From: a virus
Taxonomy: Duplodnaviria > Heunggongvirae > Uroviricota > Caudoviricetes
Reading direction: 5' to 3' (one strand)
Length of the DNA stretch: 64,000 nucleotides
IMG/VR virus record: IMGVR_UViG_3300021400_001110
Part shown: positions 42,656 through 64,000 of the stretch, one piece after another
How positions within the stretch are numbered: position 1 is the stretch's first letter
How the letters are laid out: the number at the start of each line of letters is the position of its first letter
Notes under the pieces: generated by a model
What the model was told of the DNA's origin: nothing
Seen by the model: only the letters and a program-made list of their open reading frames with translations
The model's database searches: none
Made by a program: the position numbers and the translations under genes

Positions 42656-42658
42656 AAT

Positions 42659-44767: not shown

Positions 44768-44777
44768 GACTAAAAAA

Positions 44778-44804: not shown

Positions 44805-44838
44805 GAAGCCTCTATAGAGGTAATAGGAGAATTAGTAG

Positions 44839-45368: not shown

Positions 45369-45964
45369 TTAAAAAATATAGTGCCGATATTCCCATTTTC
45401 TTTACTTCTGATACTCATTTTTGCCATTCCAACATTATTAAGTTCTGTGGACGCCCATTTAAAGATGTAAAAGAGATGAATGAGGTTCTTATCAGTAACT
45501 GGAACGAAGTAGTGGGTCCAACTGATATTGTATACCATCTTGGAGATTTTTGTTTTGCGGGTTCTGCTGAATGGCATTCTGTTCTAGGACAACTTAATGG
45601 ACGTATACATCTTATAATTGGAAATCATGATGAAAAGAATTTACGTCAAGGTTATATGAATTTATTTGAAAGTGTTAGTTATCAACAGCATATAGTTATT
45701 GGTCCTAATAATTTCTATTTAAATCATTACCCTTATTTATGTTATCCTGGACATCATTCCCATACATATCAATTGTTTGGGCATGTGCATAGTAGTCCCT
45801 TTAAATTTGAGGGTATAGACTCTGGAAGGATGCAAAATAATATTACTCCAACTCAATATGATGTAGGAGTAGATTGGAACAACTTTAAACCTATAAGTTA
45901 TGAGAAACTTATAAATCGTTTAGAGTATCAAGTTAAAAACAACAAAACTATGTATGAAAAATGA
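45359..45964 (+). CDS. metallophosphoesterase
   Basis: DTHFCH, GDFCF, GNHDE, GHVH motifs. Confidence 0.65.
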
Positions 45965-46109
45965 ATACTTTTTGCGCTTGGGTAGCACTACCTATATTTA
46001 TAAGTGCTGTAGGTTGGTTTATAAGTAAAGAAAATATAGATTATTTAATTGAATTTTTATTAGGAGTGGCTTTCGCTATATTAATATGGATAGCAATAAC
46101 ACTATAACT
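45963..46109 (+). CDS. small membrane protein
   Basis: 48-aa hydrophobic ORF (below the track cutoff), ATGA overlap. Confidence 0.25.
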
Positions 46110-46225
46110 GAAGGGTTTAAACTAGGTTATATAAGAGCCTTAGCTGATGTATTCCATGTATTAATGGATAATATGGATAATGAAGTTCAAGATAAATTAT
46201 TAACAGAATTAAAACTTAAAAAATT

Positions 46226-46798
46226 ATGAATAAAACACTAATTATTGTTGATGCACAGTATGACTTTATGGAGGGAGGAAAGCTTCCTGTAGAAGGAGCA
46301 ACTCAAGCTCTTAATAACATTGTGGAGCTTATTAATACTGGAGAGTATTCTACTATTATCACTACCCAAGATTGGCATAATGGTAAACATTGCTCATTTA
46401 AAGAACAAGGTGGAGATTTTCCAGAACATTGTGTACAGGGTACTTATGGTGCAGATATTTATAAGCCAATAGCTGATGCTATTAAGTTTAAATATCTTAC
46501 TTTTAGTCTTAGAAAGGGACAATGTTTAGAGGAATTCTCAGCATTTAAATCTCCCACTAAAGGTTACAACCATTGGAAAGAATATTATACTACAGACGAT
46601 AATACTCCTTTTATTCAATTCCATGATGAAGAAGTAATTCACATTTGTGGACTTGCAGGGGATATTTGTGTGATGAATACTGCGATAGCATTAAAGGATT
46701 TGCGTCCAGCTATTATAGACAACTGTACAGCATCTCTTAGTGATGATAACTTTAGAAAGTTAGCGGATTTAAATGGTATTAATATTATTGAAGTATGA
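46226..46798 (+). CDS. pncA: nicotinamidase / isochorismatase-family hydrolase (PncA-like)
   Basis: N-terminal IIVDAQYDF; catalytic Cys in ICGLAGDICV; adjacent to pncB. Confidence 0.6.
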   Translation: MNKTLIIVDAQYDFMEGGKLPVEGATQALNNIVELINTGEYSTIITTQDWHNGKHCSFKEQGGDFPEHCVQGTYGADIYKPIADAIKFKYLTFSLRKGQCLEEFSAFKSPTKGYNHWKEYYTTDDNTPFIQFHDEEVIHICGLAGDICVMNTAIALKDLRPAIIDNCTASLSDDNFRKLADLNGINIIEV

Positions 46799-47613
46799 TT
46801 AGAAATCCAGTTTTAGGTTCAATCGCAGGGGACATGATAGGTGTTCCCTACGAGTTTTTAAGACATGGAGTTGCTATTGCTCCTACATTTCCATTATGGT
46901 CAAAAGACTCTCATTTTTCTGATGATTCAGTGATGACTCTTGCAGTAGCTAAATGGTTATTAGAAAGTGAGGATTTTAATTATGAAGTCCTTATTAAATG
47001 TATGCAAGAACTGGGACGTAAGTATCGAGACAGAGGATATGGTAGTAACTTTGGACAATGGTTAGATACTGATAATCCTCAACCTTATGGCTCTTGGGGA
47101 AATGGTGCTGCTATGAGAGTTAGTCCTGTAGGAGTTGCCTTTACAAGAGAAGAAGATGTATCTAAATATGCAGAACTTCAAGCATCTGTATCTCATAACA
47201 GTAAAGAAGGTTATGAAGGAGCAAGAGCTATAGCATTAGCTGTTAGAGCTGCTCTTAGTAACTATAATAAGGATGCTATTTACTCTTTAATTCATGAGAG
47301 GATTCCTTCTTATAGCATAGATCGATCTGCCAAGTTCATTATGGATTCTGGATATACTTTTAAAGTAAGTTGCCAAGAATCTGTACCTGAAGCTCTTTGT
47401 TGCTTCTTCGATAGTAGTTCTTATGAAGAAACTATTCGTAAAGCAATACTCTTAAGAGGGGATACCGATACCCAAGCTGCAATGGCTGGTGGTATTGCTG
47501 CTGCATATTGGGGAATATCTGAAGAAATAGCAGAAGAAGCTAAAAACAGATTACCCCAGGATTTATATGTAATTTTATCTAAATTTAGTAAAAAATATAA
47601 TTTACCACTATGA
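46795..47613 (+). CDS. ADP-ribosylglycohydrolase (ARH/DraG family)
   Basis: N-terminal GSIAGDMIGVPYEF; C-terminal GDTDT metal-site motif. Confidence 0.7.
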   Translation: MIRNPVLGSIAGDMIGVPYEFLRHGVAIAPTFPLWSKDSHFSDDSVMTLAVAKWLLESEDFNYEVLIKCMQELGRKYRDRGYGSNFGQWLDTDNPQPYGSWGNGAAMRVSPVGVAFTREEDVSKYAELQASVSHNSKEGYEGARAIALAVRAALSNYNKDAIYSLIHERIPSYSIDRSAKFIMDSGYTFKVSCQESVPEALCCFFDSSSYEETIRKAILLRGDTDTQAAMAGGIAAAYWGISEEIAEEAKNRLPQDLYVILSKFSKKYNLPL

Positions 47614-48785
47614 TTTTAAGTATCTTAGACACTGATTTATACAAGTTTACAACTTCGTACGCTTATCAAAAACTGTATCCAAATGCGCTTGGAACTTTCG
47701 AATATGTAGACAGAAATAATACTGTCTATGATGAATCTTTCTTAGAATATCTTGAATATGAAATTTCTAAGTTAGGTAATGTTTTTCTTACTACTGAGGA
47801 ATTTTCTAAAGTAGTTTGCAACCCTTGGCTATCTAGATTTATTCCTATTTCTTACTGGGAATGGCTTGGAAGTTTTCGATTTAATCCAGGTCTTATAAGG
47901 ATATGGCTTGATGAAAATGGACATTTACATATTAGAGTTACAGATTATCTTTATAAGGTAACTCTTTATGAAGTTCCAATACTTTATACAGTATCTGAAT
48001 GTTATTATAAATTCTTTAATATACAAGCAGATATAAATTTAATGTATAAGAATTTAGCAGAAAAGATAGAATTTGCTAATAAAGAAAATCTTATTTTCTC
48101 CGAATTTGGAACTAGAAGAAGATACTCTTCTAACATACACGAATTAGTAGTTCAATACTTAAAAGAACACTCAAAGACTTGTGTAGGAACTTCTAATGTT
48201 TATTTTGCTATTAAATACAATATGATGCCTTGTGGTACTTTCCCACATGAATGGGTAATGTTCCATGGGGCAATCTGGGGATATCAACAGGCTAATGAAC
48301 TTGCAATGCGAGATTGGGTACGTTGCTATGATGGGGATTTAGGAACTGTATTGTGTGACACCTATACAACTAAGTTCTTCATTAAACAGTTTTCACGTAA
48401 ATACAGTAAACTATTTGATGGTCCACGTATAGACTCAGGTGATGAAAAGGAATTAGGAGATTTATTTATAGAGCATTATAAGTCTATGAATATTAATCCT
48501 ATGACTAAAACTCTTGTTATGAGTAATGCTCTTGATTTTCCTAAGTTTAAGGAAATTAGAGATTATTTCAAAAATAGAATTAATGTAGTTGCTGGCATTG
48601 GCACTAACCTTACTAATGATTGTGGAGTAATTCCTCTTAATGAGGTAATGAAACTTATTGAAGTTCAAGCTACTATTAATAGTTCTAAGCTTCCTTGTAT
48701 TAAACGTTCAGACGATAAAGGTAAGAGATTAGGTAGTGCTATACAGCAAGATATTTTAGACCACGTTTTATTAGATGCCTCGTAA
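47610..48785 (+). CDS. pncB: nicotinate phosphoribosyltransferase (PncB)
   Basis: N-terminal ILDTDLYKFT signature of NAPRTase; 391 aa. Confidence 0.65.
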   Translation: MILSILDTDLYKFTTSYAYQKLYPNALGTFEYVDRNNTVYDESFLEYLEYEISKLGNVFLTTEEFSKVVCNPWLSRFIPISYWEWLGSFRFNPGLIRIWLDENGHLHIRVTDYLYKVTLYEVPILYTVSECYYKFFNIQADINLMYKNLAEKIEFANKENLIFSEFGTRRRYSSNIHELVVQYLKEHSKTCVGTSNVYFAIKYNMMPCGTFPHEWVMFHGAIWGYQQANELAMRDWVRCYDGDLGTVLCDTYTTKFFIKQFSRKYSKLFDGPRIDSGDEKELGDLFIEHYKSMNINPMTKTLVMSNALDFPKFKEIRDYFKNRINVVAGIGTNLTNDCGVIPLNEVMKLIEVQATINSSKLPCIKRSDDKGKRLGSAIQQDILDHVLLDAS

Positions 48786-49041
48786 AACAATAAAAAAGGT
48801 AGAAAAGGTGGAAATTCCAAAAGGAATTCCACCTAAACCTCGTGAGAAACTAACATCTGGGCAAGAACTTTATTGTTGGTACCCTCCCAATAACACTTAT
48901 CACAAACGTGTTTATATAAAGGATGGAAAAGATCCAGATTGGGTTGTAACACAAGATGAGTCAGGTCAGAAATGGTTAGTTAATATAGAACATTTACATA
49001 ATACAATTTTAACAAAAGAAGAATATGAAAAATTGGGATAA
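48775..49041 (+). CDS. hypothetical protein
   Basis: 88-aa ORF. Confidence 0.35.
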   Translation: MPRKTIKKVEKVEIPKGIPPKPREKLTSGQELYCWYPPNNTYHKRVYIKDGKDPDWVVTQDESGQKWLVNIEHLHNTILTKEEYEKLG

Positions 49042-49849
49042 GTGGATAAATGATGCTGTAACATGTCTACAGGATTATATAAAACAGAATCATTTAAAAA
49101 GTGTAGTTCTTGGACTAAGTGGAGGTATAGATAGCACTGTATCTGCAGTTATATGCCATCTAGCTACTAAGAATATGCCTGATGTAACATTTATTGGTAG
49201 AAGTCTTCCAATTATGAACCCATCTAATGAAAAGAGTATTTCCAAGAAATTGGGAGAAATTCTTTGTGATGATTTTGCAGAGATTGATATGAGAGAATTT
49301 TATCATCCTTGGAGACTTCTTTTTTATGAAGAAGAGGAAGAATCTAAGGCTACTAACATTTCTGATGGCAATCTTATGGCTCGCATGAGAATGATGTATC
49401 TTTATCAATTAGCACATCATTATAAAGGTATAGTTATAGATACAGATAATATGACTGAACATGAACTTGGTTTCTATACTATACATGGTGATGTAGGAGA
49501 CTATAATGTAGGAATCCGTTATCTATGGAAACATGAGATTTGGGACTTAGCCAAAATGCTTAAGGATTATGTTCCAAAAGCCAAAGAAGTTATTCAAGAA
49601 TCTATAAATATGCAACCAACTGATGGTAATTGTGGAGGTACTGACATGGATCAAATAGCTCCTGGAGCTACATATGGAGATGTAGACCTAATTCTTGATT
49701 CTCTTGATAGTAGACTAAAATACAGAGAAGCTATTGATGTTTGTGGATTTGATTTAGTTAAGAGAGTAGAAGACAGAAGTGCTAGAAATGCTTATAAAGA
49801 CAAGCTTCCTATAACTCCTAATATAATGAAGAATTGGTTTAATAAATAA
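49025..49849 (+). CDS. nadE: NH3-dependent NAD+ synthetase NadE
   Basis: PP-loop LGLSGGIDST; 274 aa. Confidence 0.8.
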   Translation: MKNWDKWINDAVTCLQDYIKQNHLKSVVLGLSGGIDSTVSAVICHLATKNMPDVTFIGRSLPIMNPSNEKSISKKLGEILCDDFAEIDMREFYHPWRLLFYEEEEESKATNISDGNLMARMRMMYLYQLAHHYKGIVIDTDNMTEHELGFYTIHGDVGDYNVGIRYLWKHEIWDLAKMLKDYVPKAKEVIQESINMQPTDGNCGGTDMDQIAPGATYGDVDLILDSLDSRLKYREAIDVCGFDLVKRVEDRSARNAYKDKLPITPNIMKNWFNK

Positions 49850-49855
49850 TAAAAT

Positions 49856-50380
49856 ATGAAAGTAGCTTTTTATCTAGGTTCATTTAATCCTCCACATTAT
49901 GGACATCTTACTGTTATAAATGATGGGGTACATCAATTTGGGATGGATAAGGTAGTAGTAGTTCCTGCTATGCATAATCCTACTAAAAAAGAAAAACCTG
50001 CACCGTTTGATATTAGATGTAGTTGGATGGAAAGAATCGCAAAACAATTTGGAGACAATGTAGAAGTGGATAGAATTGAGGAATTAATGATTCCTCCTTT
50101 CTATTCCTATGCTACATTACATGCTCTAAGAACAAAGTATTGTAATGATGAGACTTATCTTCTTGTTGGAGAAGACTTAGTAAAAGAAATAGAAGATTGG
50201 ATGAATGGTGGGCAAATTCTAAAAGATTGGGATCTTCTAGTTGTAAATAGGCCTGATGGAGCATTATCATCAAGCTTATATAGAAAATGTCCAACTTTAT
50301 TTAATATGTTTATTCCCGAAATTATTAGGGACGAAGTTTATTATTATTTTAATGAACATGGAAAAGAATTGGAGTTATAA
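49856..50380 (+). CDS. nadD: nicotinate/nicotinamide-nucleotide adenylyltransferase (NadD/NMNAT)
   Basis: GSFNPPHYGH ((H/T)xGH nucleotidyltransferase motif). Confidence 0.75.
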   Translation: MKVAFYLGSFNPPHYGHLTVINDGVHQFGMDKVVVVPAMHNPTKKEKPAPFDIRCSWMERIAKQFGDNVEVDRIEELMIPPFYSYATLHALRTKYCNDETYLLVGEDLVKEIEDWMNGGQILKDWDLLVVNRPDGALSSSLYRKCPTLFNMFIPEIIRDEVYYYFNEHGKELEL

Positions 50381-51017
50381 AATTCCTGACGGTCCTCACG
50401 CAGGGACTACATTATGGAGTGGAAGATACTGTGCTGTAGCAGCATTTGTGTTTAGGCGTATAGATGGTATATGGTCAGTTCTAGCCAATCTTCGTGGTTC
50501 TGGTACACCAGACTATCAAGGTTGTTGGAACGCAGTGTGTGGCTTCCTAGAGGCCAATGAGACTGCTCAACAAGGTTGTTCACGAGAAATTTTTGAAGAA
50601 ACTGGATATGAAATAAAACCAGAAAAATTTTTACAAGTTTATACTCAGACCGATCCAGAGACTTCAAATAACGGTAATGTTACTTTAAGACATATTGCTA
50701 TATTCTTTGAACATGAGTTGGGTACTCCAAAGAATCCTGAGGGAGGAGAAGAACATGAAGTGGATGCAATTAAATGGATTCCTATTGATCAAATTCATAT
50801 GTATAAATGGGCATTTAATCATGAGCTAACTTTAAAAATCCTATTTAATGATTATATAGTTCCTTTGTGTAGTAGTCGTCCACTTAGTAAAGGAGAATTC
50901 TTTATGTTATCTCAAACTGAATGGTTAAATAATAATCCTATGGTTAAATACCTTCTTAAAAATAAAATTCTTAATACATTTGAAATAAATGATTTATATC
51001 GACAATCTTATCGCTGA
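50352..51017 (+). CDS. Nudix hydrolase
   Basis: Nudix box GFLEANETAQQGCSREIFEETGY; start moved to ATG 50352 from track 50256. Confidence 0.75.
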   Translation: MNMEKNWSYKIPDGPHAGTTLWSGRYCAVAAFVFRRIDGIWSVLANLRGSGTPDYQGCWNAVCGFLEANETAQQGCSREIFEETGYEIKPEKFLQVYTQTDPETSNNGNVTLRHIAIFFEHELGTPKNPEGGEEHEVDAIKWIPIDQIHMYKWAFNHELTLKILFNDYIVPLCSSRPLSKGEFFMLSQTEWLNNNPMVKYLLKNKILNTFEINDLYRQSYR

Positions 51018-51426
51018 GGCTCGTAAAGAGCAGAATCCAATCAAGTTAGAAGCTTATAAACAAGTTAAGCAGGAATTTGTCCTTAGAAAAACTAAGGGTG
51101 AAGACATTAACTCTAATACAGAAGTTGCAGTACTAAAGAAACTTGTTGGACATTATTCAGATCAAGCACAGCTATATCAAATTAATGGAAGAGAAGAAAT
51201 AGCAAATGAGTATAAAGCATATGCTAATGAACTCAAGAAACTTCTTCCAGAAATGATGTCTGTACAGGAGATAGAAACTCATGTTGATTATATTATTGCT
51301 AAGAATTTCAATGGCATGCCCACAAAGAAAGACATGGGTAAAATTATTAAGATGTTTAAAGAGAGCTACTCTAATGCAGATGGAGCTGCTTTAGCTAATG
51401 TTGTTAAAAGTCATATATTTGTATGA
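50989..51426 (+). CDS. GatB/YqeY domain protein
   Basis: C-terminal KDMGKIIKMFKE...ADGAALANVVKSHI matches the YqeY domain. Confidence 0.55.
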   Translation: MIYIDNLIAEARKEQNPIKLEAYKQVKQEFVLRKTKGEDINSNTEVAVLKKLVGHYSDQAQLYQINGREEIANEYKAYANELKKLLPEMMSVQEIETHVDYIIAKNFNGMPTKKDMGKIIKMFKESYSNADGAALANVVKSHIFV

Positions 51427-51995
51427 TTATAGGAATAGCTGGCAAAGCACAGGCAGGTAAAGATACTACTGCTATGATGCTGCAAACTTTACTTACTAAT
51501 CCTAACATTACATGGGATATGTATTGGCACTCTGATCATCCATTTGAATGGGATCATTTTGTCGTGCATTATGCCGATTTACTGAAAGAAGTATCTAAGG
51601 AAATGCTTGATATGCCTTTTGATAACTTTAATAGTCAAGAGGTTAAACAAATGCATCTTGATTGGCTTGGAATGACTGTCAGAGAATTTTTACAAAAGTT
51701 AGGTACTGCAGTTAGAAAGGAGATAGATCCAGAATTTTGGGTAAAAGCACTATTTAATACTTATCAAAATGGTAATATTATAATAGCTGATGTGCGTTTC
51801 CCAAATGAAGCTGAAGCTATAAAAGCTAGAGGTGGAAAATTAATTAGGATAGAACGTCCTGGTGCAGGAGCAGGAAATCATATCAGTGAAACTGCACTTG
51901 ATGATTATCATGGATGGGATATAGTTATTGATAATGTTGGTACATTGGAAGATCTATTTAATGTAGTCAAATTTCATGTACATAACAGTTTATAA
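51423..51995 (+). CDS. deoxynucleoside monophosphate kinase (T4 gp1-like)
   Basis: P-loop IGIAGKAQAGKDT; 190 aa. Confidence 0.5.
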   Translation: MIIGIAGKAQAGKDTTAMMLQTLLTNPNITWDMYWHSDHPFEWDHFVVHYADLLKEVSKEMLDMPFDNFNSQEVKQMHLDWLGMTVREFLQKLGTAVRKEIDPEFWVKALFNTYQNGNIIIADVRFPNEAEAIKARGGKLIRIERPGAGAGNHISETALDDYHGWDIVIDNVGTLEDLFNVVKFHVHNSL

Positions 51996-52041
51996 AAAGT
52001 ATAGGGGAGCTCGGTAATCGGGCTCCCCTATTTTTTTTTTA
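51995..52041. terminator. bidirectional rho-independent terminator between convergent modules
   Basis: ggggagc..gctcccc hairpin flanked by an A-run (5') and T10 (3'). Confidence 0.6.
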
Positions 52042-55000
52042 CTCTTGGGCTTTTTTCCAAGCATTGTAAGTATCTTTCCCAGCACGTGCAACTGCGAAAT
52101 TTCCCATAAATGCATCTGGTAAACTTTTTCTTCCTGTAGCTACTTTAAGAGCATCTTGAGCAACTTTAAGATTAACTTCATACATTGGAGAAGCTGTATT
52201 ATCTCCAAGCCAATCTTTAAAGTTAAGTGGACCTCTGAATGAGTCATAAGAACGAGAACCAGCTTTATAAAATATTTCAGTAGCTAAATTAGCTAATACT
52301 GGATTATTTTTCATTTCTTTCTTATAATCTTTATAAGCAGGATCTAAAGCAAACTTAAATGCTATAAACATTAATAATGTAACTAACATATCACTAATTA
52401 ATTTAGCTAAATTAGCTCTTACTGTAGGATTAGCAGTTATATATTCTTTCATTGCCTGTAATCCTCCATCCTTCGTAATATAATATAAATCTCTCATAGT
52501 ATAAGCAATTCCTTGTACTATGGTTGGAACATTATGATAGAGAGGCATTCCAGTATCTACTGTGGTAATTCCTCCATTTTCATCTAAGAAAAGAAGATTA
52601 CCAGCCTCGTCTGTCTACTATTCCATATTAGAACGATTTGCTATATATTTACCAGGCTTCATAAAGTAATTATTCCAAATACCATTCATCCAAGTAGTAT
52701 ACATACCAAAGAACCACATAATAGTAGTGTGTTCTCCCATAGACTTAAGAGATTTATCATATGCACCGTAGATATTATCAGCTACTTCTTTTATAGCAAG
52801 AATTTCTCTATCTGAGTAAGGGGCAGGTAAGAAAGTTTCTGCTGTTTCAGGATTTAAATCTATTTGGCTTTCAGGGTGTTCAGCATTCCATTCACGAGCT
52901 TTAGACATATATAAAGCTTTCGCCTATTTATACTCAGTAGAATCCTTTGAAGTTCCATCTACCAAGGCTTTAAATCTCTTATCCTTTTTCCAATTATATG
53001 TAAGAATATCGTCATTAAGTTCCCATCCTTCCCAACATCCATCTTTCATACAACGAGCAACAAACAAAGTCATACGATTTAAAAAGTCTGGTCTACGAAG
53101 AGTTGCATATGCCCAATTTTTGTAATTAGCAATACCTCCTCTACCAATACGTAATGATTCCATACTAGCAAGGTCTATATTAGAAAGACGATATTTAGCT
53201 TGAAGAGCACTTAACATACTAATATTCATCGTATTAGTCATACCATGAGTTATAGTATAAGCATATGCTTGACTAAGAGTTTTAGCATCTATATCTGTAT
53301 TTAACTTAGTAACTGTTCTCATAAAGTTTTCTTCAAATCCTTGGAATACATCACGGAAGAAAGAGATCATATTACCTCCAAGATTCATAAGAGTAACTTT
53401 ACTTCTTACCCCTGCTAATGCTCCAGTAAGTACTTGTCCAGTTTCACTTTTTATAGTTGTATTAAATACATTAACTTTTAAAAAGTCTCTAATATACTGA
53501 ATTTCTCTTTTCATTATATCAGAATTACCAGATTCTTCTCCCATTAGAGTAAGTTGGAAAAGTAAAGAACGAGTACCTACCATAAAATCCTTTAATTTAG
53601 TACATTCTATATTCTTAGATAGATATTCAATAAGAATAGTTTCTACGTTTGTTTCAAAGAATTCCACTCCATTATCATCAATATATTTCTAACGAGTTCC
53701 AGCTTCTTTTCCTGTCTCATCTCCTATCTAGAACATATTAATTACTCTTCCTAACTTTTCCTTATCTGCAGCTAAGCCTTGATTTATAAGTTTTCTTTCT
53801 TCCTCTGTAAGATTCTCAATTTGGTCGTCATAATATTGCTTAGGATTTTGAATAATTTTCCACATACGAGCAGCCCTTCCCTTCCAAGTTGATGCTTCTA
53901 GGTTTTGCATAACTTTAGTAGAATTGGAAGCTCTCATAAGTGGACACCATAAATATTTATGTCCTCCAGCTCTATTCTATATAAAATCAAGTACTTTAGG
54001 ATCATTATAACTTCCTAAATTAAGAACATCCCCTCCATTCCTTATTATATAGAACTACCATAAAGCTTTCTTAAGAAATTCCTATTCAGCTGAATCAAGA
54101 CTTTCATCTGTCCAAGGATTTTTAAACTTCATTGTTCTTCTTCCTTGTTCATCAAGTTCAAATAGATTCTTAAATATATTTACTTCATCTCCAAGAGTTG
54201 CATTTCTAGTCATTCCATAACCCTTAGCATCTAAGAATTCTTTTATGAACTTTCTCATATTTTTAGCATGATATTGCTCAATTTCAGTTGCTATACTATT
54301 ATAAGTTTGAGCTAAATTATCAGTTACTATACGAATATTTTGATTAGGAATATGATTTGTAGTAGACATATGTCTGTATATGTCAGTTAGTTCTTTCTCA
54401 TAATTAAGAGTTTCTCCATTATAATGATGATAAGCTTCTGAAATAGCTCTATATAAACGACAAACTTGCTAGTCCCTTATAGAGCCTATCTAACCTCTAG
54501 CCATTCTTGCTATGTCTTCAAATTTATAAGATGGAAGGATACAAGCAAGTTCTGACTAAAAAGCTTCTAATAATTCTTTTAGAAGTTTTGTTTTCTCATA
54601 AGCTTTATCACTCTCCATAAGACTTGCTAACTAAGCAAATTTATCTGGAGAATATCTCATAATTTCGCTTTCACTTCTATTATTAACTAAAAGCCCATAT
54701 TCGTACATTACAGACTCTAATGGATCAACAAATTGTTCAGATTTAAGAGCTCTGAAATTATTAACAAAACCAAGTTCTTTATTAGCATCATTAACTGTTG
54801 TAATAACTTCTGGAAGTATATTTTTTGTAATACTGCTTATACTATAATTTCTAGAAGTACCTGTATGGCTAAGTACTTTAACTCTTCCAAGTTGTACATT
54901 ATCCATATCCTTCATAGTAGGTAATATCTGATTAAGTAGCACTACTGCTCTTATAACCTCAGCATTACCATAGTCACCTCTTAAGGTATTTGTCTGTACA

Positions 55001-56700
55001 TCGGTCTTATAAGCACCTAACAGATTATGTCTTCCTTTACCGAAGGGTATTTCAGCATTACAATCAAAAGCAGATAAAGAAATTATATCAAGCTATCCTG
55101 TATCATTGTTCTACATTAGAATAATATTATAATCGAGAAGTTCGTCACGCAGTTTCCATTTATATACAGGAGTTTTATTACCCTTTGTATCTATAGTCCA
55201 ATCAACATCATTAAAGTAAGTATCCAGCATAGTTTTAATAAAACTTCTTGATGAAGATAGTCCTTTTAATTTGTCTATTACATCAGATTCAGGAACAAAT
55301 ACTCCTTTTTCTCCTATTTGATTCATTTTATGAATGGCCTCTTTAAGAGTATGTACAGTTTGAAGAGTTTCGTCTTGTATTTCTCCTAAATGTTCTATCA
55401 CTATATCAAGTATATCCTAATTATTATTTTTATTTTTATTAGATTTAGGTCTGTAAGATTTCCCATCTATAATCACTTCCCATCGTCCTTTATCATCATT
55501 TACTTCTCTGATTACAAGAGGTTCAGCTTCTCCAGCTTCAGGAGCACGTTTAATCATTTCAATTGCAGAACGATGAGTTCCTTCACTTCTCATATTTAAT
55601 ATAGGGAAGATGTGCTGGAATATTTCATCAGCCTTGTCAAAAGTCTCTATAGTAACCTTAGGAATATTAACATTACTGCGAATAAAGTGTCTAGCATGTT
55701 TATCATACTATTCTAGTAAATAATTACCACTAGTACTTACAGAAATATTCTGAGGAGCCCCTACTGTTATCTTTTTAAGATCAGCACCATCATAGTCCAT
55801 TTTAACTGGAACTATATTAAGTTCTATATTTTTAATAGGAATACCATTATAAGCAAGCATTTGCTTAAGAAAAGCCATACCATAGTTATATTTCTTCCAC
55901 TTATCTTTAGACCATAGATTCATAGGTTTCTAAGATGCTTTGAAATTATATATATGTAAAGTACCTGATGAATCAACAGATAGATAATCAATATGACCTA
56001 CAAGTTCCTTTCCAAGGGCTTCTACTTGTGCTTTAAGTCCAACATTACCTATAATAACTGGATTTACCTAGGTACGATAAATATATTGGTCAACAAAGTG
56101 TTCCATCTATCCTTTAAAATCTTCAAGAAGGGCAGTTCGTCCATCAAATACAGTATCTTTAATAATTCCAGATATAGCATCTATATATTCAGAATTTTTA
56201 GTTTTAGTAGAAATTGCTCCATAGCCATCAGCAATTCTGTGAAGTATTACAGAATCTTTCTTAAATTGATCCATATTAGCTAAGTCTTTATCTACTTCAG
56301 TTGTTGCTTGTTCTTCTGAATAACCATTCTTTTTAAGATTCTCTATCTCATTTGCTCTAAATTCTTCTTTATTAAATGGACGTACTAAAGGAATTCCATC
56401 TATGAGACAAGCAGGATCCTCTATAAATTCTTGATAAGATAAAGTATTTCCATCTCCTCCCAATTCATCATCATATGTAGATACTGTACGTGCGGCAGTT
56501 ACTATATAATCATGTTTAATTTCTCCTATTTTAGTAATAATAGAATCTTTAAAGGGGTCTTTAGAATATACTATATCATTTATAGAGGCTTTTTCTTCAG
56601 TATCTAAAACTTCTGCAAACTACTTATCCACATATCTAAGCAGTTCCAGTAGAGAAAGCCCTGTTTCTCCATTTACTATATCATATGTACAATTTTTCAT
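52039..56700 (-). CDS. late gene L1, ~1553 aa, TAG read as a sense codon (function unassigned; probably virion/structural module)
   Basis: All minus-strand ORF fragments 52039..56463 share one frame and are separated only by TAG ('cta' on + strand at 52615-17, 52618-20, 52924-26, 53689-91, 53728-30, 54055-57, 54082-84, 56620-22). ATG 56698-700, TAA 52039-41; no in-frame TAA/TGA. Confidence 0.7.
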
Positions 56701-59261
56701 TCACAGTCTTCTATAATATTTCTTTTACTTATCTAATCTTTAATCCAGTTATCTTTCTGGCGCTATATTTGCAATGTTCCATCTTTTACAAAATTTATAT
56801 TATCTGACAACGTCTTAGCTACGTCAGAATTAAAGTGTCTCCATATGTTTTCCAAAGAACCTTTAAAATCAATGATAGCTTTTCCTTTATCCTTTCTATC
56901 AAAGATTGTATTTTGTAGTTCTTTAATTTTATCATTCATAGCAAACATCTATCCAAGTTCATATGGTAAGTTACCTTCCATATACTCTCCATATAAGTCT
57001 GCTACAGTTTCTTCCGCTAAGTCAAAATCACTAGAATTTGGAAATTTGGCTTTCTTTCTTTTGAAAGTTTTTTGACCTCTTTCAGTAGATAATATTTTAT
57101 CCACAAATTCTAAATAACTTTCCCTATATTCTGGATTAGCTTTTAAGGCTCCAAGGAATAAGTGGGCATACTCGTGAAAAGCGTCTGTAGGTTTAGCAAT
57201 AGCTGAGTTAATATAAATTTCCCCATCTTTTATAAATGCTTTTACAAGATTCATATCCTCAATACCCATTTCAGTAAGTTGCTATTCATTTACTATATTT
57301 ACTGGAACCCCGAATTTCTCCTTCATTGTTGTTGCTATACTATTTAATAACTGTAATATAGGAAATCTCTTGTTAGTTCTTTTATCAGTTACTGCAGATA
57401 TGTCGGTTTCTGTATATCTAATACGATACTTACCTTCATCCACTTTATAAGAATTGGTAACATAGTAATAAGTAACAGGCTTGGTATTTATTTCATTTAC
57501 TATAGCTTTTATCTTATCATTGTCTGCTCTTAAATAGTGTAATTTTCCAGTATCGTCTTTAGTGTTAAGTTGTCTATTTAATTCACTTAAAAATATAACA
57601 GCCTTTTCTGATGTATTTATTTTAGAGAGAATAAGACTTTTAGTAGAATCATTTAATTCTAAGGTTTCTATATAATTATAAAAATCCTATAAAGTTTTAT
57701 CTAATAAGTCATATTCTTCTTCTTTCATATTAGTAGAACGTATATCTAAAGGCATATCAATTGCAGAGAATATAGTTCCTTCTGGAATAAATTTATAACT
57801 TTCAAAAGTTCTACCTAGTCTCTAAGAAATTCCTCCATCAAGATAACGTTGTTTAAGATTTGTGAAAGAATTCTTTCTTAAATTCTACGTTATATAATGA
57901 CTATCAATCCATTCTTGAGCATCATTTAAGCTAGAAAATCTCTAAGCATTAAGTTTTTCATTTATAAAATAAGAGGTAACATAGTAATAAGTTATTACTT
58001 TATTATTAATCTCTTTGGCTTGACTATAAATATAATAACCATTTCTTTCTTCTTCCTTTGTAAAAGAAGCTACTGTTTCATAGCCAAATCCATATGCAGA
58101 TTCCAAAGAAGGAAATATATTTTCTAATATTAACTTATCCTTTTGCAAAGACATAGCTCTTAATGCCAAAGGATTTTCATCAACATCTAATAGCTGATTA
58201 ATAGTATTAAATAGCAAGGAAAATCCCCATATATCATTTTCACCTTTATAATTAGATCTTGTCTATTCTAATAATTGATAAAAATCTAATTCATTCTGTA
58301 ATTGAGATTTTCCTACTTCAGCTTTCTAACCCTTAGATTTTTCTAAGTTAGATTGTTTAGTATTTAAACGTGATTTAAGAATTTCTAATACTTCTTCACC
58401 TCTTTTGTTAAATACTTCTACTAAATCCTTCTAAGTTCCAAACAAATGAGGAAAAGATTGGGCAAGAATTGATGTTAATTCACTTATAGTTATTATTTGC
58501 TATCCATTTCTATTAGTAGTAAGACGTCTATTAAATTCATTAAGTATAGGATTTTTATATTTTTTCTTTGAGGGAGTACCTTTAATAGCTGAGGCTATAT
58601 AAGTCATCCATGTATAAATGGATGCTCCCTCTAATATTCCTTTTTCTTTTTGTTTTTCTTGTTTAGTATTATTTAAATATGATAATATAGTTTCTTCTGG
58701 TGATAATCCTTTCTTTTGAGCTATTTTACTTAACATATCAGAAAGTTCTTCATCTAGAGTTTGTTTATACTCACCACTAAGTACTTTTTCTCTTACTTGT
58801 AAATAATTAGCTAACTATACAAGAGAATCTTTATCATTTCTTACAACAAATATCTCTTTTCCTTTTTTATCTATAACCCTTCCTCTTACAGGAACTTTAG
58901 GAGATCCATCTATAATATTATCTAATAGTAGTATAGGAACATCAATAGAAGGGAAATCTATTTCTGGAAAAGTTTCTTGTATATATTTATAATTTACGTT
59001 TGGAACTAATCCATCCTGTCCACTTATTTTACTATAAGAAACCATTTGAGAGACTGAACTATTATCTTTTAAATATTGTATGATGTCTCTTTTTATTTCC
59101 TCCCACTTACCTTTATTTTTTGATAAGACCTACGCTAGTCTAGATTGAAAATCCCATGTGGATAGAGAGCGTTCACCCTCTATCCCATAGAATTCTTCTT
59201 CGGGAACTGTTATATTATGTTCAGTTTCCCCAAATTTAAAATGTATAGTACAAGTTTTCAT
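56697..59261 (-). CDS. late gene L2, ~854 aa, TAG read as a sense codon; contains an HExxH motif
   Basis: Single frame across fragments 56763..59045. ATG 59259-61 (MKTCTIHFKFGETE..), TGA 56697-99 overlapping the L1 ATG (ATGA). In-frame TAG at 56733-35, 56763-65, 59130-32. HEYAH encoded at 57162-57176. Confidence 0.65.
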
Positions 59262-61987
59262 ATACAATTAATGTCTAAGAATAATTTAGTCTATCTCATG
59301 AGTTCTGCTATTCCAACCATAGGAGAATTGTCTAATTGTTCTTTAACCCTAGTTATAATACTAGAATATGGCTTTCCTAATATAAAGTAGGCTCTATCTA
59401 AATAGAATCTATGAAGTTTCTATTCAGTTCCTTCTCCAGGAAGAGCGGGAAGAATATCATCCATTTTTTCATATTTATTAAATCCTAAATTCTTATAATA
59501 TACTGGGAGTTTATCTTCATACATAATTACTACGGGATCTTTCTAACCTTTTAAGCTAGATACTACTCTAGCCTAAGAAATAAATAAGTCCATAGCAGTA
59601 AACTCCATCATACTATTAATTTCTGCCTCAGAATAATCGTGTTCTCCTACATACTTTAAATATCTATTAATTATATTATCACTTTTATTATCAAATTCCT
59701 TTATAAATCCTTCAAATATCTTAGTAAGACGGTCAGAACCATATTGATTTTTATTAACTATTAAGTTATAAATAGCAAACCAATCAGATATTGATAAATT
59801 ACCTATTTTATAGTTAGATAACTGTTTTAGACCTTTACTAAATCTTGATAATTGAACTCTTGTATAAGAAGAATCCGAAGAAATATTTACATTAGTTTTC
59901 CAAATAGGAACATCTCTATCATTACCTCTCTATAAGGATTGAATAAAAGAATTTCTACGAATTGTTTCTTTAGTAGCATCATCCCAATCTCCATAAGTTC
60001 CAGCTTTTAGTCCTGGAATTACTACATTTTCAAAATAGTATTTAAATGAGGCTATTCCTTCTTCTGAATCTAATGTTAATATTCCGTTAGTCTTATTTAC
60101 TATAGTTCTGTTATGGTCTAATATAGAGCCTTTAATTGGGAATTTAAAGTTTCCATCCACAATAAACTGTTGCATCATTAAAGATGAAGCAAATCCTAAA
60201 ATTCTTGAATAATATTTATCATCAAGATAAAGTTTAGGACATTCTTTAGCTATTTTATTAAGACAAGCATCAAGAATTCTACTCTTTACAGAGAATTGAT
60301 TTACAGTGCATTCACCTCCAAGTAATGTAAACATACTTTTAAAATGAGGAAGTTTAGGAGCTATAGCAAATATATTTAGAGTAACTTTTAGCTTATTATA
60401 GTATTCAGCAACTCGTTCTTGATACTCTTCATCCTATAACCACCTAATTGGATCAAATGTTCCTCCTGCTATGTCTTGATATCTAGAATCAACAGCGTCT
60501 TTAAGATTTCCATCTGCATTAGTAATACCCATATCTTTTTCTCTTTTGGTTATGAGTTTCTTTATCTTCTATAAAGTGCCCATTAAATCTTCAGCTTTAC
60601 CTGGAAGACCTTGGTTAATACTTAGAAGACGTCCAAAAGAACTAAATTCATCAGAACCTTCTAATATATGTTTAAATTCCTAAATATCAGCTAAAGCTTC
60701 AGATCTCTATTGTGCTGTTAAGTTACTAGGAATAACATTCTTTAGTAAAGATAATTTATTTCTAGAGCCAGCTACTTCATATCCATCTTCATCCTCATAA
60801 TGGTCTACATCCTTATTAGTTTCATAGTTCTTTAGATATTTTTCTATAGCTTCAAGTGCTTCATCAACACGTAATTCTTGTCCTAAGAATATATTAGGAT
60901 CTGATAGAGAGTCTATCCATGAGATAGCATCACTAGTCATGAATTTAACTATATCATTAATATCATAACCAAGAGTCATCAAGAATAGATAACATTTAGC
61001 TAATTTACTACCTGCATTGATTTTAGCAAGAATAAGCTCTTTAGCGTTATCAGTAGCAGCACTAATCATCTAACTTATAAGAATATCAATAGGAATACCA
61101 GAATGTAATTTTCCAGCTTCTATGTAATTTATAAGATTTAAATCAGAAAGCTTTTCAGTATTAACATCTGGAAGTATAGTTGAAGTAACTTGTCTCATTT
61201 GTGGAATTTTATTTACTTCCTTACTTCTTCCAGCTATTCTACTTGTTGTAAATTCAAATCTACTATAATCAAAGTCTGTATTTTCTACAGGAGTTATTTC
61301 TCCCGTAGCATTTACTGTATAGTCAATACCTTCTTTAGCCTTATTTATAGTATCATTTAAATAATACATCCACATAAATGCTGCTTTCTAACCAGTAGCA
61401 GAAATAGCAATAACATTCTTACCAGTCATATTCTAATACTACATAGTATATACAGAAAGTGGATTCATAAGAGTAATTTCTAAAGCCTCAGCACCTTTTG
61501 GGGACTTATCTGCAGCTTTTCTTAAATCTTCCATATCTACAGGAACATAAGAATCAGCAGCATTTCTAACGTTCTATATAGTATTTTGGATATGCACAGA
61601 TATAAAGTTTCTAAGAGCTGCAGCTTTTAAATCTGCAGGTAATTTAGTAGCATTATGATTATTAAGTTTCTCAATTATTTCTGGAGTAGCTCCCTTTACG
61701 AATTTATTATCTCCTAGTTTATTAAGAATACGAGCATAAGCAAGTACTTCTTTAGCTCCCCATTCATTAATAAGCGCTGGTTCAGGACTATTATCTAAAA
61801 CCTCTCGCGCCTATTTAATAATATTTGCTTCTTCTGAAATATCTACTCCATTTTCAGATTCTTCAATAATTACTCCATTCTTTGGAAGAGGTAGATACTC
61901 AGATGCTTGTATAGTTTCTAAACTATTATAGTTAAATAAGCTAGACCATCCTATATATTGTCCATTATCATCAAATGCAAGTCCCAT
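59258..61987 (-). CDS. late gene L3, ~909 aa, TAG read as a sense codon (function unassigned)
   Basis: Single frame 59258..61987. ATG 61985-87 after in-frame TGA 62027-29; TGA 59258-60 overlaps the L2 ATG (ATGA). In-frame TAG at 59291, 59543, 59573, 59930, 61070, 61388, 61433, 61439, 61574, 61811. Confidence 0.65.
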
Positions 61988-62318
61988 TATATAAGCCTTA
62001 TCAATATCCGTTTTACCTTTTATTTTTCAATAAAAGACTGACTATATCATCACTCATTATTGAGTGCCTCCCACTTCGGAATTTTTTCCTACTCCCTTCC
62101 GGGATAGTCGATGAACTTTCGTCCTTATAAAATTATACATACTAGTTTATATGTAATAATTTTATCTAGGATGCTTAGCTGCGGATTGTCCAATTTCTTT
62201 ACCTTTTTACTTTACCTCAAATAGTTACTTTGAGCCTTTAGATGTATTTCTACTCTAAATTAGTAGTAAAGAACTCTAAGGAGTTTCCCGCAATTCAAGA
62301 GGTTTAATGACTACAATA
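61988..62318 (-). other. 331-bp non-coding gap inside the late operon (small hairpins; candidate promoter or small RNA)
   Basis: No frame is open under either the standard or TAG-as-sense code; cccGGAAggg and cUUCGg-type hairpins on the transcribed strand. Confidence 0.3.
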
Positions 62319-64000
62319 TTATTTATAGTCAGAACCTTGAAGCCAGGTCTGCCAATGGCTTACATAAGCTAAGTTACTTCCTTCAGCTGTATATCCTACT
62401 TGTCTCATATTCATAAATGATTGTAAGGTTTGAGCAGGAATACGTGAAGCTGTATAATATTGAGATCTTAAGAATGAATAATATTTCTTTTTATTAAGTC
62501 TATCCTTTAAAGCAACAGTTCTATCATTAAGAATCTTAGCTATAGAACCATTATCCTTCTATTTTATAAATTTGATAGTATCAGTATCTGCATCATAAGA
62601 AAGGTCAGGTCTTTTAAATTCCTTTGCTTCCGGAATCTTACTAAATTGTTCAGAAATTGCTTCCAAGTATCTAGTAAGATGCATATCATAACCAAAATAA
62701 ATGTATTTTCCATTCTTATTCTTATGTCCAAAGCCTTCTAATATTCTTTGAACTCTAGTTAAATTGGAACGTTTTACTTGTTGGTTATTAACTGTAAGAG
62801 TTTCATATGAATCTGCCTCATATATCTCTTTAAACAACTCCTATATATAGGTATTAGCATCTTGATCAATAGCTTGTTCTGGAGTTAGAGTATGTCCATT
62901 TTCTAAAGTAATATCTCTTGGAGTAATAGTTCTTTTTAGTTCTGGGATATTAACATTAAGAACTGTATGTCTACGTCCATGGTCTTTTACTTCATGCTTT
63001 GTAACAAATTCTACATACTCTACAACTTCTCCGTTTATAAACTAGAATCTTCCATCCTTTTCAATCTTTTCATGAGTATTTTTATCATAATAGTACTTAC
63101 CTTCCTAACTAAAAGCAAGATCTGGTCTTCTTATATCTCTACCAATTTTAAATAAAATCTTCTATTCTTTATTGGTAGCATATACTTCATTTACTATCAG
63201 AGGATCATTAACAGCTTTTCTATGTCTATCTTTCCAATAAGTCAATTTATATTGAATATCAGGAAGATTACCATCTTCATCAGCTACAGTAGATTCAAAA
63301 TGTCTATCTAAAGACAAATAGGTATGATGACCGTTAGCTTTAGTCATTATCATATCATAGAAATCTGGGTCTACACTTTGATGTACTTGTCTTATATTTC
63401 CAGCTTTTTTAGGACCATCTTTTATAACATCTATAATGGATTGATCTACATCTACCCCAAATCTAGACTAATAAATATTAGACATTATAAGTTCAGCAGG
63501 AGTATTATGTAATTTAATTGGAATTCCATCATATGTACCACTATCAAGTTCATCAAGAAGTTGCTAAGTGTTAGCATATTCTTTTACTCCTTGAGCTTGT
63601 AGTCTAGATATATAATTAAGTATTCTAGCTTGTTTCTCCCCTTTCTGAGATTCAGCAAATTTTCTAAGCATATGAATACTATTAAATATGTTGTTAGTTC
63701 TATCAACCATAACTTCTTTAATAGTTCCATCTTCCTATACCATAGGAGTCTTAGCTTTATATTCCCACCAAATTTTAGTTGGAGCTAAGTTACGAGCTAT
63801 ATGTAAGTTCTTTCTAAATTCTAATACTTTTACTGTAACGGGTACTCCATTATTCTTTGCAGTAAGTCTATCCTACATAAACGCTCTAGGATCAGCTTTA
63901 AATAGGTAATAGTCAGATATTGAATCAAGAGATATATTTTCCCAATGTTGCTTATTATTTACTTCTACAAGTACTCCAACATTATCTGTAGGCATGAATT
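62319..64000 (-). CDS. late gene L4 (3' part; continues beyond the window), TAG read as a sense codon
   Basis: Single frame from the window edge to TAA 62319-21 (..FMNMRQVGYTAEGSNLAYVSHWQTWLQGSDYK*). In-frame TAG at 62559-61, 62841-43, 63162-64. Confidence 0.6.

What the first reader, a model, noticed from the sequence alone, without database searches (positions are those of the whole stretch)
52039..64000. The late minus-strand block reads TAG as a sense codon
The claim is that about 19 short standard-code ORFs on the minus strand are really four long collinear genes in which TAG is translated.

What the sequence shows:
- The fragments fall into four runs, each with one constant frame: 52039-56463, 56763-59045, 59930-61375 and 62559-63353.
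- Every break between fragments is a TAG ('cta' on the given strand). There are tandem TAGs at 52615-52620.
- The peptide reads sensibly across each TAG, for example ..NMF-TAG-IGDETGKEAGTR-TAG-KYIDDNGVEFFETN.. around 53690-53730.
- The true gene ends are TAA 52039, TGA 56697, TGA 59258 and TAA 62319.
- L1/L2 and L2/L3 junctions are classic ATGA overlaps, as used throughout the + strand module.
- One frame runs 1553 codons with no TAA or TGA. In ~30% GC DNA that is effectively impossible by chance.

This matches the code-15 (TAG to Gln) late-gene recoding known from crAss-like, Lak and other gut phages. Standard-code annotation of this element would miss or pseudogenise its largest proteins.
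Basis: partly seen in the sequence, partly recalled or inferred. Interest (0 to 1): 0.9.

Follow-up and report, generated by a model that had tools for sequence, protein, structure and literature searches.

The report
Amber-recoded late genes of crAss-like phage
The minus-strand block of this gut-phage fragment really does read the TAG stop codon as glutamine, a known habit of crAss-like phages. The block holds three giant genes, not four, because one of them (a virion RNA polymerase homologue) is split by a self-splicing intron.

Summary
On the minus strand of 52039-64000, 58 in-frame stops break the reading frames, and all of them are TAG. Reading TAG as sense raises ORF coverage from 57% to 97.5%; table 4 changes nothing.

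The amino acid is glutamine.
- In relatives 58-86% identical, window TAGs align to CAA (48), CAG (10) or TAG (27) in 134 comparisons.
- In a family-wide substitution profile, Gln fits far better than any other residue.
- All 77 IMG/VR relatives examined carry 11-43 in-frame TAGs in the same gene. One relative, MT835470, encodes the whole block in standard code.

The plus strand is a standard-code, crAss-like replication module. The window has no suppressor tRNA. One relative carries a tRNA(CUA) in an array upstream of the homologue of the window's start.

This is a new member of a known kind, and public gene calls for relatives already use code 15.

The parts
52039..56700 (-). Gene L1: 1553 aa, 20 in-frame TAG (first at codon 27), stop TAA at 52039-52041. 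Function unknown. Conserved across more than 100 relatives.
   Evidence: frame and TAG positions; full-length homologues of 36-95% identity; TAG matches Gln; 77 of 77 IMG/VR homologues carry 11-43 TAG and no TGA or TAA. No Pfam, PHROG or PDB sequence match.
56697..59261 (-). Gene L2: 854 aa, 14 in-frame TAG. Its stop TGA overlaps the L1 start (ATGA). It carries a conserved HExxH motif (HEYAH, aa 695-699 of the 854-aa protein), which suggests a zincin-like metallopeptidase domain.
   Evidence: homologues; HExxH is conserved in 7 of 7 close and distant homologues, and an HExxH with a downstream G/A falls in the corresponding stretch of 71 of 80 IMG/VR loci.
59258..62008 (-). It begins with ..DIDKAYIMGLAF. 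Its stop TGA overlaps the L2 start (ATGA).
   Evidence: The exon junction is identical to the intronless relative L004.
62009..62324 (-). Group I self-splicing intron: 316 nt, no ORF. It sits between the Y codon and the second D codon of the DYDID (DxDxD) catalytic motif.
   Evidence: Rfam RF00028 scores 70.1 bits against a gathering score of 50, E 1e-17, full model 1-253. P1 pairs GACUAU with GUAGUC, with a U.G pair at the 5' splice site. The last intron base is G. Removing the intron restores the frame. The intron is present in relative L003 (63 bits) and absent in L004, L038, L049 and L050.
62325..64000 (-). Exon 1 (3' part only; the gene runs off the window end) of the same gene, with 9 in-frame TAG. 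It ends ..HWQTWLQGSDY.
52001..52040 (.). GC-rich hairpin with a T-run, in the 43-nt gap between the convergent plus and minus modules. It is a probable terminator and marks the boundary between the two codes.
   Evidence: 14-bp stem with 8 GC pairs, followed by T10. The GC skew changes sign here.
1..51995 (+). Context: a standard-code replication and nucleotide-metabolism module. It includes an SNF2-type helicase, DnaB, an AAA ATPase, primase, NrdD, a Dda-like helicase, DNA and RNA ligases, PNKP, a sigma-70 factor, PolA, ThyX, NAD-salvage genes, YqeY and a dNMP kinase. ORF coverage is 87% under table 11. Stops are TGA 36, TAA 30, TAG 4.

Best explanation
The window comes from a large (about 120-195 kb) divergent crAss-like phage that uses two genetic codes. 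The plus-strand replication module (1-51995) is written in the standard code, so the host's unmodified translation system can express it.

The convergent minus-strand block (52039 onward) is the promoter-distal end of the virion/late module. It encodes three giant proteins in which UAG is decoded as glutamine (code 15). UAG supplies 58 of about 162 Gln codons there.

Without amber suppression, translation of L1 and L2 would stop after 26 and 43 codons, so these proteins can only be made once a UAG decoder is present. The most likely decoder is a phage tRNA with anticodon CUA, encoded in a tRNA array just upstream of the window and charged by the host GlnRS. This step is inferred.

The most promoter-proximal of the three genes is a homologue of the crAss-like virion-packaged RNA polymerase. 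It needs a second RNA-level step. A 316-nt ORF-less group I intron (62009-62324) splits its catalytic DYDID motif and must splice out to join exon 1 (down to 62325) to exon 2 (from 62008).

Shown here: the in-frame TAGs, the match of TAG to Gln in homologues, the code boundary, the intron and its in-frame junction, and the RNA polymerase fold in the family. Inferred: late timing, the identity and location of the suppressor tRNA, and actual splicing.
For: 1. Only TAG interrupts the frames: 58 TAG against 0 TAA/TGA. ORF coverage is 57% under table 11, 97.5% under table 15 and 57% under table 4.
2. In relatives 58-86% identical, the window's TAGs align to CAA 48, CAG 10, TAG 27 and other codons 49 out of 134 (my tally). 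CAA is two substitutions from TAG, so mutational proximity does not explain this.
3. In a family alignment of 39 sequences, the non-TAG partners of TAG are Gln 50.8% of the time in pairs of 55-95% identity. Gln itself is conserved 63.7%, and every other residue checked is replaced by Gln at most 2.2% of the time. Mean log-likelihood per observation is -1.93 for Gln against -3.55 for the runner-up, Lys. In the 25-55% band, TAG aligns to Q 10.3% and Q to Q 9.9%.
4. The L1 TAG at aa 1361 falls in a column that is Q or TAG in all 23 homologues aligned, and Q in the standard-code MT835470.
5. MT835470 encodes the syntenic block with zero TAG. MT835492 has about 600 in-frame TAGs across its whole minus-strand virion half and essentially none in real genes of its plus-strand half.
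6. All 77 IMG/VR homologues of L1 examined carry 11-43 TAG and no TGA or TAA.
8. Intron.
9. Suppressor: a relative in the same family (L1 homologue 47% identical, 30 TAG) carries a tRNA(CUA) within a 22-tRNA array. The array lies 5-15 kb upstream of the homologue of window gene 1633-2067.
Against: - The window has no tRNA of any kind (ARAGORN, Rfam). It also has no release factor or aminoacyl-tRNA synthetase among the Pfam-annotated genes. The decoder is therefore not demonstrated for this genome.
- In the closest long relative, the tRNA at the suppressor's position has an aberrant 6-nt loop, CGCCAA, rather than a CUA anticodon.
- MT835492 has six tRNAs and none is CUA, although that record looks incomplete.
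- Late timing and virion packaging are inferred from homology only.
- The RNA polymerase fold was modelled on a 34%-identical family member, not on the window's own sequence.
- There is no proteomic or RNA evidence for this element.
Confidence: 0.9

Rival explanations
1. TAG is translated, but as a residue other than glutamine: pyrrolysine, or Lys, Glu, Tyr, Trp, Leu or Ser, which are one substitution away.
For: ARAGORN labels the relative's CUA tRNA 'tRNA-Pyl'. In distant homologues the TAG columns often hold K or E.
Against: The substitution profile favours Gln by 1.6 nats per observation over the next residue. CAA dominates the partners in close relatives, 48 of 107 non-TAG partners, whereas AAG, GAG, TAT, TGG, TTG and TCG are rare. 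K and E are simply the usual replacements for Gln at that divergence: TAG to Q is 10.3% and Q to Q is 9.9%. No pyl genes were seen among the annotated genes. ARAGORN's 'Pyl' label is only its name for any CUA anticodon.
Confidence: 0.03
2. The block is a decaying pseudogene region, or an assembly or sequencing artefact, and the TAGs are real stops.
For: Standard-code callers fragment the region into 62 pieces. No family model recognises the proteins.
Against: Decay would also introduce TAA, TGA and frameshifts, and none occurs in 3875 codons. Independent assemblies from many samples show the same pattern. Protein sequence is conserved on both sides of every TAG at 77-95% identity. TAG exchanges specifically with Gln codons.
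Confidence: 0.01
3. UAG is decoded as Gln, but not by a canonical phage tRNA(CUA). Candidates are a host near-cognate tRNA-Gln or a non-canonical phage tRNA, possibly helped by phage factors such as the YqeY (GatB-like) protein at 50989-51426, with RF1 neutralised.
For: The window has no suppressor. MT835492 has no CUA tRNA. The closest relative has a 6-nt-loop tRNA at the suppressor's position. A YqeY gene sits two genes from the recoded block. The literature reports suppressors in only about 40% of TAG-recoded phages (bioRxiv 10.1101/2021.08.26.457843; PMC7886860).
Against: The window covers only part of the genome and starts downstream of where relatives keep their tRNA array. One relative does have a tRNA(CUA). 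YqeY is also present in the standard-code MT835470 and was not found in the recoded MT835492, so it does not track recoding. Twenty TAGs per gene require near-complete suppression.
Confidence: 0.1

Closest known systems
TAG-to-Gln (code 15) recoding of late genes in crAss-like phages (Yutin et al. 2021, PMC7886860; Borges et al., bioRxiv 10.1101/2021.08.26.457843; proteomic validation by Peters et al. 2022, PMC9523058)
   Same: In-frame TAG is confined to the module co-oriented with the virion genes, while the replication module uses the standard code. TAG aligns with Gln. Code use switches between close relatives: MT835470 is standard and MT835492 is recoded. Suppressor tRNAs are patchy.
   Different: The sequences are very remote from the classical crAss families: capsid protein 22-24% identity, and no PHROG or Pfam hit for the giant proteins. 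Relatives have genomes of 120-195 kb with arrays of 20 or more tRNAs plus a tmRNA. There is no proteomic evidence for this lineage.
Virion-packaged RNA polymerase gp66 of Cellulophaga phage phi14:2 (PDB 6VR4)
   Different: Only 16% identity over the aligned part. The protein here is about 3290 aa against about 2170. The gene is amber-recoded and interrupted by a group I intron. Packaging and activity are untested.
Zeta group of crAss-like phages, proposed 'Echekviridae' (PMC7886860; PMC12386605)
   Same: Large genomes (145-192 kb), many tRNAs, and amber, opal or standard code in different branches. Introns are frequent, RNA polymerase ORFs are disrupted at the DxDxD motif, and a GatB/YqeY-type gene is present among the tRNA-related genes.
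   Different: Membership was not tested. The window has no TerL, portal or capsid gene, and no named Zeta genome was compared. The disruptions reported in that group were attributed to 'yet unknown expression mechanisms', whereas here a plain ORF-less group I intron accounts for it.
Mobile group I introns in phage genes (T4 td, nrdB and nrdD/sunY; Rfam RF00028)
   Same: The catalytic core is recognised by the Rfam model. There is a U.G pair at the 5' splice site and a terminal G. The intron is inserted at the most conserved catalytic site of an essential gene and shows presence/absence polymorphism among close relatives.
   Different: This copy has no homing endonuclease ORF. Relatives carry insertions of 1035-1084 nt at the same site; in MT835470 the insertion holds a 239-codon ORF. 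The host gene is a virion RNA polymerase written in code 15.

Membership tests
Code-15 (TAG to Gln) dual-coded phage | In-frame TAG, and only TAG, interrupts otherwise intact genes | tested here: met
   58 TAG against 0 TAA/TGA in 3875 codons. ORF coverage is 57% under table 11 and 97.5% under table 15; table 4 has no effect.
Code-15 (TAG to Gln) dual-coded phage | TAG positions correspond to Gln in homologues | tested here: met
   CAA or CAG at 58 of 107 non-TAG partners in relatives 58-86% identical. The substitution-profile likelihood is best for Gln by a wide margin. One column is Q or TAG in every homologue aligned, and Q in the standard-code relative.
Code-15 (TAG to Gln) dual-coded phage | The recoded codon is restricted to one module; early and replication genes are readable in standard code | tested here: met
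   The plus module is 87% covered under table 11 and gains only about 2 points under table 15. Four of its 70 ORFs end in TAG. The boundary coincides with the strand switch and a terminator hairpin at about 52000.
Code-15 (TAG to Gln) dual-coded phage | A phage-encoded suppressor tRNA with anticodon CUA | tested here: inconclusive
   None in the window. Present in one relative's tRNA array upstream of the homologous early region. Aberrant in the closest relative. Absent from MT835492. The rest of this genome is not available.
Code-15 (TAG to Gln) dual-coded phage | Peptides with Gln at TAG positions | not testable with these tools
   This needs metaproteomics of the kind done in PMC9523058.
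crAss-like phages (Crassvirales in the broad sense) | A replication block with DnaG-family primase, DnaB and SNF2 helicases and an AAA+ ATPase (PMC7886860) | tested here: met
   SNF2/ResIII helicase 8298-9581, DnaB 10613-11701, AAA_22/24 ATPase 11702-12400, primase 13819-14823.
crAss-like phages (Crassvirales in the broad sense) | A transcription block of giant multidomain proteins, one with the DxDxD motif of a two-barrel RNA polymerase | tested here: met
crAss-like phages (Crassvirales in the broad sense) | Capsid protein, TerL and portal group with crAss-like phages; IHF and signature structural genes are present | tested here: inconclusive
   These genes are not in the window. The capsid protein of relative MT835470 hits crAss-like capsid proteins at 22-24% identity, with E from 3e-9 to 3e-4. 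No phylogeny was made. IHF was not searched for.
Group I intron (RF00028) | The covariance model scores above the gathering threshold over the full core | tested here: met
   70.1 bits against 50, model positions 1-253 of 253.
Group I intron (RF00028) | U at the end of the 5' exon, paired with G in P1; G as the last intron base | tested here: met
   GACUAU|AAAUAAUAUUGUAGUC forms P1 with a U.G pair at the splice site. The intron ends ..AAAACG|GAU. This was read from the sequence.
Group I intron (RF00028) | Removing the intron restores a continuous ORF identical to intronless alleles | tested here: met
   The spliced product reads ..LQGSDY|DIDKAYIMGLAF.., as in L004, and gives 1474 codons without TAA or TGA.
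Group I intron (RF00028) | Self-splicing activity | not testable with these tools
   This needs an in vitro splicing assay, or RNA-seq across the junction.

The most novel reading that the evidence does not exclude
In this sub-lineage UAG may be read as Gln without a canonical CUA suppressor. No suppressor lies in the 64 kb seen here. The closest long relative carries a tRNA with a 6-nt loop (CGCCAA) at the exact position where a more distant relative has tRNA(CUA). A heavily recoded relative, MT835492, has no CUA tRNA at all. A non-canonical decoder, or a phage-modified host tRNA-Gln, would be a new route to code change.

A more modest point is separate from this. The ORF-less group I intron inside the DxDxD motif may account for at least some of the RNA-polymerase gene disruptions in large crAss-like phages that were attributed in 2021 to 'yet unknown expression mechanisms'.
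Probability: 0.1. Interest if true: 0.7.

Novelty: new member of a known kind. Interest (0 to 1): 0.3.

Why it matters
In practice, any standard-code annotation of this element would shatter its three largest genes into 62 fragments. It would also miss that one of them is the virion RNA polymerase. Correct annotation needs table 15 for the minus-strand module and removal of the intron at 62009-62324.

In concept, the finding adds nothing new to code-15 biology. That biology is already established for crAss-like phages, including by proteomics.

It does document two things. First, a large and abundant TAG-recoded lineage: at least 77 IMG/VR contigs of up to 195 kb. Second, a clean case in which a single gene needs both RNA splicing and stop-codon reassignment, with the intron inserted in the polymerase's catalytic metal-binding motif.

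Tried and rejected
Searches that found nothing:
- PHROGs and Pfam on the four joined proteins gave no significant hit.
- PDB sequence searches with the L1 profile, the spliced giant protein, and the MT835470 capsid and giant proteins gave nothing meaningful.
- Megablast of the block against phage genomes returned only a 166-nt match.
- A homology search with the exon 1 fragment returned one weak hit. A query spanning the splice junction worked instead.
- Rfam found nothing in the nrdD intervening sequence at 22900-24300, nor in the 1-kb ORF-containing insertions of relatives.

Steps that failed:
- Walking upstream of the window's own contig gained only 1.7 kb, with no tRNA.
- The tRNA array of the closest relative could not be extended beyond locus L125.
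- MFE folding of the two suppressor-position tRNAs did not give cloverleaves and was not used.

Readings considered and rejected:
- TGA or TAA reassignment.
- Genes on the plus strand under the block. Only three plus-strand ORFs of about 100 codons lie there, and the GC skew is reversed.
- YqeY as a marker of recoding. It is present in the standard-code relative and was not found in a recoded one.
Full report
**Observation.** The window is 31.5% G+C. Its GC skew is positive up to about 52 kb and negative from there to the end, which marks a switch of coding strand.

With TAG read as sense, the minus strand of 52039-64000 resolves into four long frames:
- 52039-56700: 1553 codons, 20 TAG.
- 56697-59261: 854 aa, 14 TAG.
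- 59258-62026: 15 TAG.
- 62319-63998: open at the window end, 9 TAG.

All 58 in-frame stops are TAG. TAA and TGA occur 718 times in the other two frames of the same genes, yet never in frame. Standard code yields 62 fragments, 19 of them at least 90 aa. A run of 1553 codons free of TAA and TGA has a probability of about 1e-47 at this composition. ORF coverage of the region is 57% under table 11, 97.5% under table 15 and 57% under table 4.

**Which amino acid.** tblastn against phage genomes found two long relatives from human faeces. MT835470 encodes the syntenic block in plain standard code, with ORFs of 1530, 810, 992, 239 and 2282 codons and no TAG. MT835492 has about 600 in-frame TAGs spread over its entire minus-strand half, which includes the capsid gene, and essentially none in the real genes of its plus-strand half. 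The window's proteins align to both relatives straight through the TAG positions.

The large protein database holds full-length homologues of L1 at 36-95% identity. Their genes do not translate to the stored proteins under table 11, and the closest of them (77-95% identity) have Q at most of the window's TAG columns. So the public gene calls were already made with code 15.

Three lines of evidence identify the residue:
- Codon-level alignment to relatives 58-86% identical pairs the window's TAGs with CAA 48 times, CAG 10, TAG 27 and other codons 49, out of 134 (tally). CAA is two substitutions from TAG, so this is not a mutational-neighbour effect.
- In a 39-sequence family alignment, the non-TAG partner of TAG is Gln in 50.8% of cases at 55-95% identity. 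Gln itself is conserved 63.7%, and every other residue checked is replaced by Gln at most 2.2% of the time. Mean log-likelihood per observation is -1.93 for Gln against -3.55 for Lys, the next best. At 25-55% identity TAG aligns to Q 10.3% and Q to Q 9.9%.
- The TAG at L1 residue 1361 sits in a column that is Q or TAG in every homologue aligned, and Q in the standard-code MT835470.

All 77 IMG/VR homologues of L1 that I examined carry 11-43 in-frame TAGs and no TGA or TAA. TAG therefore codes for Gln here. In the window it supplies 58 of about 162 Gln codons in the block.

**A correction: three genes, and an intron.** An Rfam scan of the whole window gave a single hit, a group I intron on the minus strand at 62018-62334 (70.1 bits against a gathering score of 50, full model).

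Relatives L004, L009 and MT835492 have one ORF of 3073-3402 codons across this place. Aligning the intronless L004 to the window fixes the junction:
- Exon 1 ends at 62325 with ..GGU UCU GAC UAU.
- The intron runs from 62324 to 62009. It is 316 nt and has no ORF.
- Exon 2 starts at 62008 with GAU AUU GAU AAG.

The last exon base U pairs with G in P1 (GACUAU with GUAGUC), and the intron ends in G. Both are as expected for group I introns. Splicing gives ..LQGSDY|DIDKAYIMGLAF.. in frame, identical to L004, and one continuous reading frame of 1474 codons in the window with 24 TAGs. The TAA at 62319 is therefore intronic.

The same intron is recognised in relative L003 (63 bits). Other close relatives lack it, and some carry insertions of 1035-1084 nt at the same site; in MT835470 the insertion holds a 239-codon ORF. 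That patchy distribution is typical of a mobile intron.

**What the genes are.** The intron splits DYDID, a DxDxD motif that is nearly invariant in the family as QGSD[YF]DIDK. An AlphaFold model was built for a family member spanning the motif. This was P0088, which is 34% identical to the window's junction region (E 3e-49). The model has mean pLDDT 78.8 and used 59 aligned sequences.

L2 carries an HExxH motif conserved throughout the family, including the standard-code relative, which suggests a metallopeptidase domain. L1 has no recognisable domain.

**Context.** The plus strand is a standard-code replication and nucleotide-metabolism module. It contains the four genes that Yutin et al. 2021 list as conserved in crAss-like replication blocks: an SNF2-type helicase, DnaB, an AAA ATPase and a DnaG-type primase. 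PolA's best hits are Crassvirales phages, and the capsid protein of the relatives weakly matches crAss-like capsid proteins.

The literature already describes the key features:
- TAG-to-Gln or TGA-to-Trp recoding of mostly late genes in 243 crAss-like genomes.
- Code switches between close relatives.
- Imperfect correlation between recoding and suppressor tRNAs.
- A block of giant proteins with a DxDxD polymerase.
- For the large-genome Zeta group, polymerase ORFs disrupted at the DxDxD motif by 'yet unknown expression mechanisms' (PMC7886860).

Code 15 in crAss-like phages has been validated by metaproteomics (PMC9523058). A regulatory model, with standard-code early genes and recoded late genes, has also been proposed (bioRxiv 10.1101/2021.08.26.457843).

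**Mechanism and its gaps.** The block is convergent with the replication module and separated from it by a strong hairpin with a T-run at 52001-52040. In relatives it is the far end of the long co-oriented virion module. The first TAGs fall at codon 27 of L1 and codon 44 of L2, so without suppression only short peptides would be made.

The window has no tRNA and no release factor or synthetase gene. In relatives, a tRNA array with a tmRNA lies 5-15 kb upstream of the homologue of window gene 1633-2067. In one relative (L1 homologue 47% identical, 30 TAG) the array includes a tRNA with anticodon CUA. The window probably just misses its own array.

Two observations keep this step inferred rather than shown:
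- The closest long relative has, at the suppressor's position, a tRNA with a 6-nt loop CGCCAA.
- MT835492 has six tRNAs, none of them CUA. That record looks incomplete.

**Verdict.** The finding is real, and its central interpretation is right with high confidence. It is a new member of a known kind, and public pipelines already translate its relatives with code 15. The added value of this check is fourfold:
- Identification of the amino acid from homologues.
- The re-annotation from four genes to three.
- The group I intron in the catalytic motif of a virion-RNA-polymerase homologue.
- The open question of the decoder.

Noticed in passing
window 62009-62324 (minus strand): An ORF-less group I intron is inserted inside the DYDID catalytic motif of the RNA-polymerase-like gene. 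Its presence is patchy among close relatives, and insertions of about 1 kb occupy the same site elsewhere (the one in MT835470 holds a 239-codon ORF). It may explain some of the 'frameshifts at DxDxD' reported for large crAss-like phages.
   Followed up: yes
window 21324-24528 (plus strand): The anaerobic ribonucleotide reductase gene nrdD is split. The N-terminal part is 21324-23132 and the C-terminal part roughly 24060-24528, with an HNH endonuclease ORF (23295-24056) between them. This looks like an intron with a homing endonuclease, but Rfam found no intron core there.
   Followed up: partly
window 50989-51426 (plus strand): A stand-alone YqeY (GatB-like, tRNA-Gln-related) domain protein lies two genes from the amber-recoded block (Pfam E 3e-16). 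A homologue exists in the standard-code MT835470, and none was found in the recoded MT835492. It therefore does not track recoding.
   Followed up: partly
window 34496-35341 (plus strand): A complete sigma-70 family factor (regions 1.2, 2, 3 and 4) is encoded in the standard-code module. MT835492 also has one. It is a candidate for redirecting host RNA polymerase to later phage genes.
   Followed up: no
window 32748-34130 and 36931-37827 (plus strand): An RNA ligase and a polynucleotide kinase-phosphatase (AAA_33 plus HAD_PNKP) occur together. This is the T4-type pair that repairs tRNAs cut by host anticodon nucleases. Both are 51% identical to their MT835470 homologues.
   Followed up: no
window 46226-51017 (plus strand): A cluster of NAD-related genes: isochorismatase-family (nicotinamidase-like), ADP-ribosylglycohydrolase, NAPRTase, NAD synthase, a cytidylyltransferase-like protein (NMNAT-like) and NUDIX. 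It looks like an NAD+ salvage or reconstitution pathway, possibly a counter to NAD-depleting host defences.
   Followed up: no
window 56697-59261 (minus strand), motif at aa 695-699 of the 854-aa protein: An HExxH motif (HEYAH) in L2 is conserved in all seven homologues examined, including the standard-code relative, and an HExxH with a downstream G/A falls in the corresponding stretch of 71 of 80 IMG/VR loci. This suggests a zincin-like metallopeptidase domain in a giant protein of the transcription block.
   Followed up: partly
window 358-645, 3923-4234, 4185-4667, 4921-5391 (plus strand): These are the only four plus-strand ORFs that end in TAG. All lie in the first 5.4 kb, and each has a TAA or TGA 3-17 codons further on. 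Amber suppression later in infection would therefore add only a short tail.
   Followed up: partly
L036 2739-12489, L125 2283-12674, L022 231-3417 (relatives, upstream of the window's homologous start): Relatives carry arrays of up to 22 tRNAs plus a phage-encoded tmRNA. One array holds a tRNA(CUA). The closest relative has, at the same position, a tRNA with a 6-nt loop CGCCAA that ARAGORN cannot assign.
   Followed up: partly
window 52001-52040: A 14-bp GC-rich hairpin followed by T10 fills the 43-nt gap between the convergent modules. It is the only terminator-like site in 51500-64000.
   Followed up: yes
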